Positions 7,139 to 10,959 of a stretch of 64,000 nucleotides of DNA are shown piece after piece. The notes beneath the pieces were generated by a model. The model saw only the letters and a program-made list of their open reading frames with translations. It had not been told where the DNA came from and ran no database searches. Made by a program: the position numbers and the translations under genes. Origin of the DNA: the human T2T-CHM13v2.0 reference genome, Homo sapiens; assembly GCF_009914755.1 (NCBI RefSeq), contig NC_060938.1; one strand, given 5' to 3'. Within the stretch, counting starts at the first letter, position 1. Every line of letters begins with the position of its first letter.

Positions 7139-7336
7139 TCACAGAACAGGGAATACTGAAACTTTCTTCTACTTTAAAAAGTCCCCTGTTTCAATCTGCT
7201 TTCCAGTCCTTTTGATTTTTGCTCACAAACTGGGGGAAAACACCACTCCTTCTGATGCATGGCTATCTTCCTGAAAAATTAATTTGATGAGGTTGTGCAA
7301 CCAGAGGCTGAAGTGAAGTTACAAAGGTTACACGCT

Positions 7337-9126
7337 GCCCTCCCCCTCCCCCTCCCCCTCCCCCTCTCCCCACGGTCTCCCTCTGATACCGAGCCGAAGC
7401 TGGACTGTACTGCTGCCATCTCGGCTCACTGCAACCTCCCTGCCTGATTCTCCTGCCTCAGCTTGCCGAGTGCCTGCGATTGCAGGCACGCGCCGCCACG
7501 CCTGACTGGTTTTCGTATTTTTTTGGTGGAGACGGGGTTTCGCTGTGTTGGCCGGGCTGGTCTCCAGCTCCTAACCGCGAGTGATCCACCAGCCTCGGCC
7601 TCCCGAGGTGCCGGGATTGCAGACGGAGTCTGGTTCACTCAGTGCTCAATGTTGCCCAGGCTGGAGTGCAGTGGCGTGATCTCGGCTCGCTACAACCTCC
7701 ACCTCCCAGCCGCCTGCCTTGGCCTCCCAAAGTGCCGAGATTGCAGCCTCTGCCCGGCCGCCACCCCGTCTGGGAAGTGAGGAGCGTCTCTGCCTGGCCG
7801 CCCATCATCTGGGACGTGAGGAGCCCCTCTGCCTGGCTGCCCAGTCTGGAAAGTGAGGAGCGTCTCTGCCCGGCCGCCATCCCATCTAGGAAGTGAGAAA
7901 CGCCTCTTCCCGGCCGCCATCCCATCTAGGAAGTGAGGAGCGTCTCTGCCCGGCCGCCCATCGTCTGAGATGTGGGGAGCGCCTCTGCCCCGCCGCCCCG
8001 TCTGGGATGTGAGGAGCGCCTCTACCCGTCCGCGACCCCGTCTGGGAGGAGAGGAGCGTCTCTGCCCGGCCGCGACCCCGTCTGGGAGGAGAGGAGCGTC
8101 TCTGCCCGGCCGCCCCGTCTGAGAAGTGAGGAGCCCCTCCGCCCGGAAGCCGCCCCGTCTGAGAAGTGAGGAGCGTCACCGCCCGGCAGCCACCCCGTCC
8201 AGGAAGGAGGTGGGGGTCACCCACCGCCAGGCCAGCCGCCCCGTCCAGGAGGGAGGTGGGGGGGGTCAGCCCCCCGCCCGGCCAGCCGCCCCGTCCGGGA
8301 GGGAGGTCGGGGGGTCAGCCCTCTACCCGGCCAGCCGCCCCGTCCGGGAGGGAGGTGGGGGGGTCAGCCCCCTGCCCGGCCAGCCGCCCCGTCCGGGAGG
8401 TGAGGGGCGCCTCTGCCCGGCCGCCCCTACTGGGAAGTAAGGAGCCCCTCTGCCCGGCCAGCCGCCCCGTCCGGGAGGGAGGTGGGGGGGTCAGCCCCCC
8501 GCCCGGCCAGCAGCCCCTTCCGGGAAGTGGGGGGCGCCTCTGCCCGGCCGCCCCTACTGGGAGGTGAGGAGCCCCTCTGCCCGGCCACCACCCCATCTGG
8601 GAGGTGTGCCCGGCAGCTCATTGAGAACGGGCCATGATGACAATGGCGGTTTTGTGGAGTAGAAAGTGGTGAGAGGTGGGGAAAAGAGTGAGAAATCGGA
8701 TGGTTGCCGTGTTTGTGTAGTAGGAGGTAGACATGGGAGACTTTTCATTTTGTTCTGTACTAAGAAAAATTCTTCTGCCTTGGGATCCTGTTGATCTGTG
8801 ACCTTACCCCCAACCCTGTGCTCTCTGAAACATGTGCTGTGTCCACTCAAGGTTAAATGGATTAAGGGCGGTGCAAGATGTGCTTTGTTAAACAGATGCT
8901 TGAAGGCAGCATGCTCGTTAAGAGTCATCACCACTCCCTAATCTCAAGTACCCAGGGACACAAACACTGCGGAAGGCCGCAGGGTCCTCCGCCTAGGAAA
9001 ACCAGAGACCTTTGTTCACTTGTTTATCTGCTGACCTTCCCTCCACTATTGTCCCGTGACCCTGCCAAATCCCCCTCTGTGAGAAACACCCAAGAATGAT
9101 CAAAAATAAATAAATTAAAAAAAAAA
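7337..9126 (+). mobile_element. Full-length SVA retrotransposon (SVA_D-like), antisense to PPP2R5E in intron 2
   Basis: (CCCCCT)n hexamer head ~7337-7368, antisense Alu-like domain to ~7745, GC-rich VNTR ~7746-8610, SINE-R ~8611-9105, then AATAAA and an A tail. Flanked by ACAAAGGTTACACGCT at 7321-7336 and 9127-9142. Subfamily is tentative. Confidence 0.96.
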
Positions 9127-10959
9127 ACAAAGGTTACACGCTAAAAAAAAAAAAAAAATTAATTTGATGAGATAAAGATCAAAAGTAGCCTTCTTACCCT
9201 CAAAAAAACTCTTCACCTTTGCTATAAATATTCTTGCATTCAAAGTACTCATTCAATCAAAAACAGTGTTGTGTGCTTATAATGTGTAAGGCACACAACA
9301 GCTGTGATTCCTACACTGCTAGTAGAAGACAGCCCTTAGGAGCCTGAACCTACTCTGAATTCTCACTATATTTCCTCATAAGATATGGTGGAGGAGTATG
9401 CCCTACTATTGCCAGATATTGTTTCCTGGGGGCACTTCAGTAAAAGGTTAATTCAAGTCTGTATCTCCCTTATTAGAAGACAGTATTTTTCCTGAAATGG
9501 TGCCAAGTCTCAATTTGCTACATGTTCTTTTTAATGTTTTAACATTTTACTTTGAACAGTGTTCCAGGCACAAGCAGCCCTGAATTAATTAAATTAAAAT
9601 TTAACGTCACTGTGAGACAAAAGTCTTTCATGGTGCCTACATAACGGATGAACTTTTGCCAGATTGCTTCTCTCACAACACTGCATATTCTGAAACAAGA
9701 TCCAGGTCCACAGGGCTGACTTCAAGAAAGATAAATGGCAAACAGAGAGATGAGGGAACGCATATTTATTAAGCAGCCAACCACTATTCAGACAGTTTAC
9801 CCACAATGCCTCACTTACTCTTCACAACCACCTTGGGCAGCATGAATCTCGTTTTACCAAAAGGGAGACTGAAGTTCCAAAGACGTTTAAATAACTCACC
9901 TCAGTTCATAAAGCTAAGATTATCACCTAGACTTGAACCCAGACCCTTTCCTACAATAAGTGAGTTCCCCAAAGATGGAGGGATGAGTGTTCAAGGACAC
10001 CACAGCCAGAATGCTACCAGTTTACTGAACTGTTCCTTACTATTCCATGACTGACATGACTGACATGCCTTCACCAGGACACAGCATGAGTTGCACAGGG
10101 GCCCAGGGACACGTCTTGTGCCCAGCTCCCCGGCCTGGCCAGCCTTCTTGAGGAGCCCAGAGCCCACGGCCTGCCACACCTCTCCCCATCACCACCCACA
10201 GTGCTGCTGCAGGCCTGGCTGCTCCCCTCATTCTTCTCTTCTCTGCTTTGCTTTCTCACCACCTTCAGTCTCCTCGTAATTTTTAGAGTACTTGCAAAAA
10301 CGTCTTAGTAAATCACCCCAGCACAGTATGACCAAGATTGCGGTTAGCTGTTCTCACCTGCACACATTTATGACTAACGGCCACAACAAGGAAGTTACCA
10401 GCTTTAGAGCCAGACCGGCCTAGGGTCCCACCCCTGGCTCTCTCTGCACGAGTGGGCAAGTTACTTTGCCCTCAGTTAAAAGCAAACATCGCTTGTTCTT
10501 GGTATTGGGCGTGCAGCTTAAATGAGACGCCATGTGGTACATTGCCTGGCACACCGAAAAACCAACAGACATCTCTTCTTAACTGATTGCTAACCTATTT
10601 CTTTACCAGCAGAAACAACCTGACTTTCTCCTCCCAAATTCTCCCAGGTCCACAGCCATTCCAGAAAAATGTTTCTTTACAGGCACACTCAATTTTATCA
10701 CTGGTATTCCTATTCACCCAGCTTAATTTTTCAAATGATGCAGATCAAAATTTTCCAGCCAACCACACACTACAGTCATGTAGTAACTTCTCCCTTCAAA
10801 TACCTTTTAAAATTCTATTTGGTATCAAAAAGAATCAAAAATCAGGAAAGACATACAGGAGAAGAAACCTCTAGTCATGAGAGCTCCCTTCTACAGAGAG
10901 AGATGACAAATTCTGTCTCCACTCTGAGTGAGAAAACATGCCAACCACCCAAAGCAACT

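What the first reader, a model, noticed from the sequence alone, without database searches (positions are those of the whole stretch)
7274..9171. SVA with two nested TSD pairs: a daughter copy carrying its parent's flanks (5' and 3' transduction)
Seen: an inner 16-bp direct repeat ACAAAGGTTACACGCT (7321-7336, 9127-9142) flanks the SVA. A second poly(A) follows it (9143-9158), and an outer 18-bp repeat AAAAATTAATTTGATGAG (7274-7291, 9154-9171) brackets everything. Between the outer and inner left repeats sit 29 extra nt (GTTGTGCAACCAGAGGCTGAAGTGAAGTT), which with the inner repeat resemble an ERV1 LTR (LTR10-like from memory). Inference: the outer pair is the real TSD here. The RNA started upstream of a source SVA elsewhere and was cleaved just past that source's 3' TSD (AATAAA 9105/9109, ATTAAA 9114). 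The insert therefore carries a barcode of its source locus, and possibly of an LTR-driven SVA lineage. 5'-transducing SVA groups are an established class.
Basis: partly seen in the sequence, partly recalled or inferred. Interest (0 to 1): 0.8.

Follow-up and report, generated by a model that had tools for sequence, protein, structure and literature searches.

The report
SVA copy carrying its parent's flanks
This SVA retrotransposon copy carries short pieces of the DNA that flanked its parent element on chromosome 16, a known kind of hitch-hiking that lets its family of eight copies be traced to a parent site that is now empty.

Summary
The outer 18-nt repeat is the real target-site duplication. 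Inside it lie an untemplated G and 44 nt of foreign 5' flank whose last 16 nt are the parent's TSD. Then come a full SVA, the parent's A-rich tail, the parent's 3' TSD copy and a new poly(A).

The 44-mer occurs elsewhere in CHM13 only at chr16:3391126-3391169, inside a 540-bp ERV1-type solo LTR. That site holds one copy of the 16-mer and no SVA.

Six other SVAs share the identical LTR/SVA junction with shorter 5' flanks, which rules out two sequential insertions. One of them, on chr9, also carries the inner 3' TSD. An eighth, 5'-truncated copy shares the group's SINE-R signature.

Private divergence (0.58% non-CpG, 3.7% CpG) suggests a burst millions of years ago, so the parent was probably lost.

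The LTR's sense strand runs opposite to the SVA, shown by a tRNA-Arg primer-binding site and the TATA/AATAAA layout. Any LTR drive is therefore antisense, from U3. The name LTR10 is unconfirmed.

SVAs with both transductions, TSD-only 3' transductions and empty source sites are all in print (Kirby 2025). This is a clean instance of a known kind.

The parts
7274..7291 (+). Left copy of the outer (true) target-site duplication of this insertion, AAAAATTAATTTGATGAG
   Evidence: Exact 18/18 repeat with 9154-9171. The A-rich start fits an L1 endonuclease nick (CTG|AAAAA on the top strand; the nick consensus is recalled).
7292..7292 (+). Single G not templated by the chr16 source (which has T there). 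Probably cap-derived, marking the true 5' end of the RNA.
   Evidence: The window has ...GAG G TTGTGCAACC and chr16 has ...GCT T TTGTGCAACC. The cap-G reading follows Damert 2018 (PMC6139936, passage seen) and is an inference here.
7293..7336 (+). 5' transduction: 44 nt identical to CHM13 chr16:3391126-3391169, from the antisense strand of the U3 part of a solo ERV1-type LTR
   Evidence: At up to 3 mismatches there are only two genome-wide matches, the window and chr16, both exact. Other copies of the LTR are at most about 87% identical to the chr16 copy.
7321..7336 (+). Inner left repeat: the source element's 5' TSD copy (ACAAAGGTTACACGCT), part of the 5' transduction
   Evidence: Exact repeat with 9127-9142. 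It is present once at the empty chr16 site.
7337..7370 (+). SVA 5' end: G plus the (CCCTCC/CCCTCT)n hexamer region. It is shorter than in the siblings, lacking a second CCACGGTCT unit.
   Evidence: TRF row 7338-7370; alignment with siblings.
7371..7745 (+). SVA Alu-like region (two antisense Alu fragments)
   Evidence: Weak antisense SRP/Alu matches at 7390-7506 and 7527-7634. It aligns along its whole length to the sibling SVAs and is 96.8% identical to the chr8 SVA.
7746..8604 (+). SVA VNTR
   Evidence: TRF arrays with periods 37-49, 117, 127 and 156 across 7746-8604.
8605..9104 (+). SVA SINE-R region, with the group signature GTGTTTGTGTAGTAGGAGG
   Evidence: Alignment. The signature is found in 8 places in the genome at up to 2 mismatches, among 228 hits at up to 3.
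9105..9126 (+). Source-encoded poly(A) signals and A-rich tail (AATAAA 9105 and 9109, ATTAAA 9114, then an A run)
   Evidence: The same AATAAATAAATTAAAA-type tail is shared by the siblings.
9127..9142 (+). 3' transduction: the source element's 3' TSD copy, ending 23 nt after ATTAAA
   Evidence: The chr9 sibling has the same structure, polyadenylated after the same ...ACACGCT.
9143..9153 (+). New poly(A) tail of this insertion. The A16 run spans 9143-9158, and its last five A overlap the outer TSD.
9154..9171 (+). Right copy of the outer target-site duplication

Best explanation
The insert at 7292-9153 is an L1-mediated retrotransposed SVA. It lies on the + strand, antisense in a PPP2R5E intron. 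Its RNA template was made from a source SVA that once sat in a solo ERV1-type LTR at what is now CHM13 chr16:3391154-3391169. That source had inserted there with the 16-bp TSD ACAAAGGTTACACGCT.

Transcription began 44 nt upstream of the source, in the antisense strand of the LTR's U3. It ran through the whole SVA and skipped cleavage in the source's short A-tail. The RNA was cleaved and polyadenylated right after the source's 3' TSD copy, 23 nt past ATTAAA. Reverse transcription at a nick in chr14 then produced the outer 13-18-bp TSD.

Shown here: the nested structure, the unique origin of the 44-mer, the shared junction in 7 SVAs, the second copy (chr9) with the inner 3' TSD, the empty chr16 site, and the LTR's orientation.

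Inferred: that the source was lost rather than hidden; that the 5' ends are real start sites, with a cap-G on this copy and a cluster within a few nucleotides in 4 of the 6 siblings; and that the LTR's upstream-antisense promoter activity supplied them. Whether this copy is a direct daughter, or itself fathered the siblings, cannot be told.
For: Structure:
- The structure and both repeat pairs are exact.

Origin of the flank:
- The 44-mer at up to 3 mismatches gives 2 places in 3.1 Gb, the window and chr16:3391126-3391169.
- The chr16 copy lies in LTR context that continues on both sides, with a single ACAAAGGTTACACGCT followed by ATGCAAGC.
- The 511-nt LTR query has no other match above about 87% identity among the 40 of 1374 candidates that were scored.

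Siblings:
- The junction GTTACAAAGGTTACACGC-N-GCCCTC at up to 3 mismatches gives 7 places, all SVA 5' ends, with 0 control hits.
- Their own TSDs and shorter 5' flanks of 21-34 nt were read.
- Poly(A) followed by the inner TSD occurs in the window and in the chr9 sibling (13 hits at up to 2 mismatches; only these two lie at SVA 3' ends of the group, and the other 11 each have 2 mismatches, against 11 control hits). Both are polyadenylated after ...ACACGCT.
- All 8 copies share the tail AATAAA(A)ATAAAT....
- The SINE-R signature marks 8 copies, including a 5'-truncated one at chr3:44.8 Mb.

Enzymology:
- The endonuclease-like target at chr16 is GTT|ACAAAG, which reads TTGT/AA on the bottom strand (the consensus TTTT/AA is recalled).

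Literature (PMC12593883, sections 7 and 10 read):
- 32 of 217 transduction-carrying SVAs have both 5' and 3' transductions.
- Ultra-short 3' transductions are the source's TSD.
- Transduction origins without an SVA are attributed to sources lost or rare.
Against: - No source SVA exists at chr16 in CHM13, nor within 3 kb either side. The parent is inferred only from its footprint.
- No offspring carries a longer 3' transduction reaching the unique chr16 sequence past the TSD; the 32-mer spanning it has 1 hit, chr16 itself. The 3' side therefore does not independently confirm chr16.
- Only 44 nt tie the copy to chr16.
- No ape or other human assembly could be searched, so neither the empty chr14 site nor a filled chr16 allele was seen.
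- One sibling (chr11) has no clean TSD.
- The 5' ends of three siblings (chr14b, chr4, chr9) show 1-2 nt of microhomology with their targets. This fits slight 5' truncation as well as it fits true start sites.
Confidence: 0.88

Rival explanations
1. Two sequential insertions at chr14. First a tiny poly(A)-tailed retrocopy of a chr16 LTR transcript (44 nt) inserted, making the outer TSD. Then an SVA inserted into it, making the inner 16-bp TSD.
For: On the window alone this is formally possible. GTT|ACAAAG is an acceptable L1 endonuclease site, and the inner repeat ends exactly at the second poly(A).
Against: Six other SVAs on five chromosomes have the very same LTR/SVA junction inside their own, different TSDs. 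The chr9 copy also repeats the inner 3' TSD plus poly(A). Independent SVA insertions at the same base of seven separate mini-retrocopies are not credible.
Confidence: 0.01
2. A variant of the lineage. The chr16 source fired once, producing this window copy. The window copy was then the master for the other group members, with their RNAs starting inside its 5' flank and ending at its first or second poly(A).
For: Every sibling's 5' flank is a subset of the window's 44 nt, and the window has the longest. The chr9 copy's '...ACACGCT + poly(A)' could be copied from the window's templated A16. This variant needs only one firing of a short-lived chr16 allele. Offspring acting as sources is documented (PMC12593883, section 7).
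Against: None of the window's private changes is shared by any sibling. These are 5 substitutions, the loss of the second CCACGGTCT unit and a 4-nt loss in the tail. No sibling carries chr14 flank. The pattern is star-like and fits a common source equally well.
Confidence: 0.25
3. The 5' ends are not start sites in the LTR. Transcripts read in from a promoter far upstream of the chr16 LTR, and the cDNAs were 5'-truncated at or near the SVA boundary during insertion.
For: There are 1-2 nt microhomologies at three sibling 5' junctions. One member is truncated inside the Alu-like part. The LTR's own promoter points the other way.
Against: Random truncation should scatter along the 2-kb RNA. Instead 4 of 6 siblings start within about 3-4 nt (CAGAGG), and chr11 is also probably nearby. 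All 7 start within 44 nt. The window copy has an extra untemplated G of the kind ascribed to the cap (PMC6139936 passage).
Confidence: 0.25
4. The source sat not at chr16 but in a near-identical duplicate of that LTR region that CHM13 lacks.
For: The chr16 site is empty and only 44 nt are shared.
Against: No paralogue of the 511-nt region above about 87% identity exists in CHM13 among the candidates scored. The 32-mer across the site is unique. The single 16-mer at chr16 is exactly the expected pre-integration state.
Confidence: 0.04

Closest known systems
5'-transducing SVA groups (Damert et al. 2009, Genome Res 19:1992; Hancks et al. 2009). Both are recalled; neither paper is held.
   Same: Non-SVA sequence lies between the 5' TSD and the SVA. 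It is shared by several copies and traceable to one origin, and is explained by initiation upstream of a source element.
   Different: This group is small (7 copies with the flank plus 1 truncated copy). The flank is only 21-44 nt and joins the intact hexamer end directly through the parent's TSD, so there was no splicing. The origin lies in the antisense strand of an LTR's U3, and the origin site is empty. I could not check whether their genome-wide inventory already lists these loci.
Ultra-short 3' transductions consisting of the source's TSD (Kirby et al. 2025, PMC12593883; sections 7, 10 and 12 passages and Tables S2/S8 seen)
   Same: Read-through of the SVA's own signal, with cleavage just past the source TSD. 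32 of 217 transduction-bearing SVAs carry both 5' and 3' transductions. Origins without an SVA are ascribed to lost or rare sources.
   Different: Their set is polymorphic, non-reference SVA_D/E/F/F1. This group looks older and is not in their tables: 0 hits for the junction strings, and none of the 55 source rows is at chr16:3.3-3.4 Mb or has this TSD.
SVA_F1 (MAST2) lineage
   Same: A 5'-acquired foreign sequence is inherited by all descendants and marks a lineage.
   Different: By the description in PMC12593883 (passage), MAST2 exon 1 was spliced into the Alu-like region and replaced the hexamer. Here the SVA is complete and the flank is contiguous genomic DNA.
L1 3'-transduction families with untraceable or extinct progenitors
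   Same: Offspring barcoded by parental flank allow a family tree and a source locus to be inferred even when the source is absent.
   Different: The element is SVA rather than L1, and both flanks are carried.

Membership tests
SVA retrotransposon (canonical full-length) | Ordered hexamer repeat, Alu-like region, VNTR, SINE-R and poly(A) | tested here: met
   The element aligns end to end with seven other SVAs and with the chr8 SVA.
L1-mediated (TPRT) insertion | A TSD of about 7-20 bp flanking the whole insert, a terminal poly(A) and an A-rich nick site | tested here: met
   Outer repeat of 13-18 bp, A16 tail, target CTG|AAAAA. The nick consensus is recalled.
5' transduction | Non-element sequence between the 5' TSD and the element that maps uniquely to another locus | tested here: met
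   The 44-mer is found only at chr16:3391126-3391169 besides the window.
3' transduction | Sequence after the element's own tail, followed by a second poly(A), matching the source's 3' flank | tested here: met
   Positions 9127-9142 equal the 16-mer at the chr16 site, followed by A16. It is only 16 nt, that is, the parental TSD.
Transduction group | Two or more elements at different loci share the transduced sequence | tested here: met
   7 loci share the junction. 2 share the 3' TSD.
Traceable source element | An SVA present at the origin of the transduced sequence | tested here: not met
   The chr16 site holds one 16-mer and no SVA within 3 kb either side in CHM13. It is not in the Kirby 2025 source catalogue (0 of 55 rows). 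Other assemblies could not be searched.
ERV1-class solo LTR (origin of the flank) | TG...CA ends, a 4-bp flanking repeat, and proviral copies with a PBS next to U5 | tested here: met
   The LTR is 540 bp, runs TGTTAC...CCTCA and is flanked by GTAA/GTAA. Other copies have 4-bp repeats. 11 of 98 copies with the exact LTR end adjoin a PBS complementary to tRNA-Arg(ACG). The 15-mer is the 3' end of tRNA-Arg(acg) genes in 7 of 7 loci scanned, out of 32 hits.
   No repeat library was available. The family's proviral copies show a tRNA-Arg PBS, which argues against an Ile-primed ERV but does not name the LTR.
LTR-promoter-driven transcript (sense) | The transcript starts at the U3/R boundary on the LTR's sense strand | tested here: not met
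   The PBS side, AATAAA (sense position 433) and the TATA-like box (about position 347) all lie on the strand opposite to the SVA. The flank corresponds to sense positions 210-253 in U3.

The most novel reading that the evidence does not exclude
The chr16 element was a short-lived master SVA. It landed about 100-135 bp upstream of an ERV1 LTR's core promoter, on the opposite strand, and borrowed that LTR's upstream-antisense start sites. That made it unusually productive, with at least 8 surviving offspring, before the allele was lost from the human lineage. It may survive as a filled allele in another great ape through lineage sorting, or at low frequency in humans.
Probability: 0.2. Interest if true: 0.45.

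Novelty: new member of a known kind. Interest (0 to 1): 0.3.

Why it matters
The locus is a very clean worked example of a retrotransposon copy that records its parent's address. The nested TSDs, the unique 44-mer and seven siblings allow a vanished source element and its exact integration site to be recovered from one genome. It also shows that SVA transcripts can begin in the antisense strand of an LTR's U3, which bears on the open question of where SVA promoters lie. It changes no concept, because every ingredient has been described in print.

Tried and rejected
- Rfam scan of 7200-9250 at E up to 10: only weak antisense Alu/SRP and chance hits, and nothing in the 44-nt flank. A small-RNA origin of the flank is therefore not supported.
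- Search for offspring with a longer 3' transduction into unique chr16 sequence: none.
- The Alu-like marker TCTGG...ATGTT as a group marker: rejected. It gave 1007 hits at up to 2 mismatches, and the exact form occurs in 13 copies, of which 3 are group members; 3 further members appear among the listed 1-mismatch hits.
- Naming the SVA subfamily: not achieved.
  - The 5' Alu-like stretch (CTCTGATACCGAG, TTTTCGTATTTTTTTGG) differs from the three labelled D, E and F examples I compared among the Kirby Table S2 rows shown.
  - The SINE-R is only 92% identical to the chr8 SLC35G5-transducing SVA that Hoyt et al. call SVA_C.
  - The 5' SINE-R variant is shared by at least 228 copies.
- Literature:
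  - Damert 2009, Hancks 2009 and Hancks & Kazazian 2010 are not held.
  - A literal search for two junction strings in full texts found 0 papers, and 0 occurrences in the Kirby supplements.
  - PMC6139936 and PMC9132208 passages mention no such group.
- TSD of the chr11 sibling: no clean repeat. There is only a loose resemblance about 60 nt downstream, left unresolved.
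Full report
**1. Observation**

In order it contains:
- the outer repeat AAAAATTAATTTGATGAG at 7274-7291;
- 29 nt at 7292-7320;
- the inner repeat ACAAAGGTTACACGCT at 7321-7336;
- a complete SVA, with hexamer 7338-7370, Alu-like part, VNTR 7746-8604 and SINE-R;
- an A-rich tail with AATAAA at 9105 and 9109 and ATTAAA at 9114;
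- the inner repeat again at 9127-9142;
- a run of 16 A at 9143-9158;
- the outer repeat again at 9154-9171.

Both repeat pairs are 100% identical. Each string occurs only twice in the window even with one mismatch allowed, and none of 100 shuffles gave a match. The outer repeat's five leading A cannot be separated from the poly(A), so the secure TSD core is 13 nt.

**2. Where the extra 5' sequence comes from**

The window's own assembly (T2T-CHM13) could be searched.
- The 44 nt at 7293-7336, allowing 3 mismatches, occur at exactly two places in 3.1 Gb: the window and chr16:3391126-3391169. Both matches are exact.
- At chr16 the 44-mer continues on both sides into a repeat, and the 16-mer ACAAAGGTTACACGCT occurs once, followed by ATGCAAGC. 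There is no SVA there, nor within 3 kb either side.
- The base before the 44-mer is T at chr16 and G in the window (7292). This fits an untemplated, cap-derived G, a reading used for SVA 5' ends in PMC6139936 (passage). Here it is an inference.
- The chr16 repeat is a 540-bp solo LTR (chr16:3390839-3391378) with TG...CA ends and a 4-bp flanking repeat, GTAA.
- The first look found 1374 candidate relatives. The 40 that were scored are at most about 87% identical to the chr16 copy. The exact 44-mer is therefore specific to this copy.

**3. Siblings**

The junction of flank and SVA (GTTACAAAGGTTACACGC-N-GCCCTC, up to 3 mismatches) occurs 7 times in the genome, with 0 control hits. Every hit is at the 5' end of an SVA. 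The loci are the window, chr9:34155649, chr3:8429665, chr11:60572406, chr2:15644636, chr14:60753805 and chr4:40112261.

- Five of the six siblings have their own clean TSDs. The chr11 copy has none that I could find.
- Their 5' flanks are shorter subsets of the window's 44 nt:

| Copy | 5' flank | Starts at |
|---|---|---|
| chr3 | 34 nt | AGAGGCTG |
| chr14 (second copy) | 34 nt | AGAGGCTG |
| chr4 | about 33 nt | (not recorded) |
| chr9 | about 32 nt | (not recorded) |
| chr2 | 21-22 nt | (not recorded) |
| chr11 | unclear | unclear |

- Poly(A) followed by the inner 16-mer was searched at up to 2 mismatches. It gave 13 hits against 11 control hits. Only the window (0 mismatches) and chr9:34157634 (1 mismatch) lie at group SVA 3' ends.
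- The chr9 copy therefore also carries the parent's 3' TSD. It is polyadenylated after the same ...ACACGCT.
- A group-specific SINE-R signature (GTGTTTGTGTAGTAGGAGG within a 45-mer) marks these seven plus an eighth copy at chr3:44836404. There were 8 hits at up to 2 mismatches among 228 at up to 3.
- The eighth copy is 5'-truncated inside the Alu-like region. It has the TSD AAGAAACTGCATC and lies in an L1.
- All eight share an unusual templated tail (AATAAAAAATAAAT...). The chr3:8.43 Mb and chr4 copies share a variant of it...AAATTAATTT.

**4. What this excludes**

That would need the same base-exact event at seven loci, so it is excluded.

A small-RNA origin of the flank finds no support.

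A hidden paralogue of the chr16 region is not present in CHM13. Nothing above about 87% identity was scored, and the 32-mer across the integration point is unique. One search also shows that no offspring carries a longer 3' transduction, so the 3' side adds no independent proof of chr16.

**5. Mechanism**

*Shown.* A source SVA integrated at chr16 with a 16-bp TSD. The target GTT|ACAAAG gives TTGT/AA on the nicked strand, close to the recalled L1 endonuclease preference TTTT/AA. RNAs from that source, or from a descendant, included upstream flank. In two cases they included the downstream TSD copy.

*Inferred.* The cleavage site after ...ACACGCT lies 23 nt past ATTAAA and 28-32 nt past the AATAAA motifs. 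That is within the usual distance, and the source's short A-run allowed cleavage beyond it.

The starts cluster: 4 of the 6 siblings begin within about 3-4 nt, and chr11 is probably nearby. Together with the extra G on the window copy, this suggests genuine start sites 21-44 nt upstream of the SVA. Microhomologies of 1-2 nt at three junctions leave slight 5' truncation open as an alternative.

**6. The LTR's orientation**

- On the strand of the SVA the LTR has no AATAAA. On the other strand it has a CCAAT box (sense position 323), a TATA-like box at about 347 (TATTTAAAC in other copies, TGTTTAAAC at chr16) and AATAAA at 433. It ends ...GGTAACA at 540.
- Of 98 genomic copies with the exact end TGTTACCAGTGGAGG, 11 have the same flank, CTCCTGGCTGGCTC(A/G)CCAAAATA, next to that end.
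- The 15-mer CTCCTGGCTGGCTCG has 32 exact hits in the genome. In 7 of the 7 loci I scanned it is the 3' end of a tRNA-Arg(acg) gene.
- That flank is therefore the reverse complement of a tRNA-Arg primer-binding site, which fixes the LTR's sense strand as opposite to the SVA.
- A further 5 of the 98 share a second flank that I did not resolve.
- The transduced 44 nt correspond to sense positions 210-253, inside U3, about 90-135 nt upstream of the TATA-like box and the presumed start site.

The canonical LTR promoter therefore cannot have driven the SVA. Upstream-antisense (divergent) initiation from that promoter region is a reasonable but untested idea.

The LTR is of ERV1 type, judged by its 4-bp repeats. 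Its name could not be determined. An Arg-primed ERV does not fit what I recall of LTR10/HERVIP10 (Ile).

**7. Age and fate of the source**

Over 824 aligned Alu-like and SINE-R sites in the 8 copies, private substitutions average:
- 0.58% at non-CpG sites (35 over 8 x 760);
- 3.7% at CpG sites (19 over 8 x 64).

Shared derived states are limited to four CpG positions, so the pattern is star-like.

With recalled rates of about 0.15%/Myr (non-CpG), this is roughly 4 Myr. With slower pedigree-type rates it is over 10 Myr. Either way it is an old burst rather than current polymorphism.

The group is absent from the polymorphic non-reference SVA set of PMC12593883 (0 string hits). None of that paper's 55 catalogued sources lies at chr16:3.3-3.4 Mb or has this TSD.

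The most economical reading is that the chr16 source allele never fixed and was lost. Precise removal between the TSDs, or survival in other haplotypes or species, cannot be excluded with one genome.

It is also open whether the chr16 element fathered all eight copies, or only the window copy, which then fathered the rest. No private change of the window copy is shared by any sibling.

**8. Comparison with what is known**

- 5'-transducing SVA groups are an established class (Damert 2009 and Hancks 2009; recalled, papers not held).
- PMC12593883 (sections 7 and 10 and further passages read) reports that 40% of 543 non-reference SVAs carry transductions.
- In that paper 32 of 217 transduction carriers have both 5' and 3' transductions.
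[quoted passage not shown] Each feature of this locus is thus documented. What is particular here is the combination in an older, small family, the antisense-U3 origin and the exact recovery of an empty source site.

I found no description of this specific group (passages). However, the 2009 genome-wide inventory, which I could not read, may list these copies.

**9. Verdict**

It is a new, well-resolved member of a known kind. Interest is modest.

Noticed in passing
L031 (CHM13 chr11:60571906-60577406), 5' junction near locus position 500 and 3' end near 2870: The chr11 sibling has no clean TSD. The left flank AAGAGCTTGAAATAGAGAC only loosely resembles sequence about 60 nt downstream of its poly(A). 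This may be a target rearrangement or an unrecognised 3' transduction.
   Followed up: partly
L042 (CHM13 chr3:44835400-44841400, minus strand): Eighth group member, 5'-truncated inside the Alu-like region, with TSD AAGAAACTGCATC, inserted in an L1. It was found only through the SINE-R signature.
   Followed up: yes
L030 and L034 (the chr3:8.43 Mb and chr4:40.11 Mb siblings), 3' tails: These two copies share a tail variant (...AAATAAATTAATTT...) not seen in the others. This hints at a sub-lineage or a change in the source between firings.
   Followed up: no
window 7337-7400 versus siblings: The window copy lacks the second CCACGGTCTCCCTCT unit that all six full-length siblings have, and has a 4-nt shorter AATAAA tail (GATCAAAAATAAAT versus GATCAATAAAAAATAAAT). 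Both changes are private.
   Followed up: partly
CHM13 genome, 98 copies of the LTR end TGTTACCAGTGGAGG: 11 copies adjoin a tRNA-Arg(ACG) primer-binding site. 5 others share a different recurrent flank (TCCCTCCCACTCCTGGAGG) of unknown meaning.
   Followed up: partly
GRCh38 chr16:3370911 (Kirby 2025 Table S2, row SVA_Chr16_424): A polymorphic non-reference SVA_E with TSD TAAGAAGAGGAGTTGA is listed in the same 16p13.3 neighbourhood as the empty source LTR. Its TSD and subfamily differ, so it is unrelated to this group.
   Followed up: partly
L078 (CHM13 chr8:8407500-8410500, minus strand): The SVA next to SLC35G5, called SVA_C by Hoyt et al., shares the exact Alu-like marker with the group (96.8% identity). 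Its SINE-R is only 92% identical, so SVA 5' and 3' parts here have different affinities.
   Followed up: no
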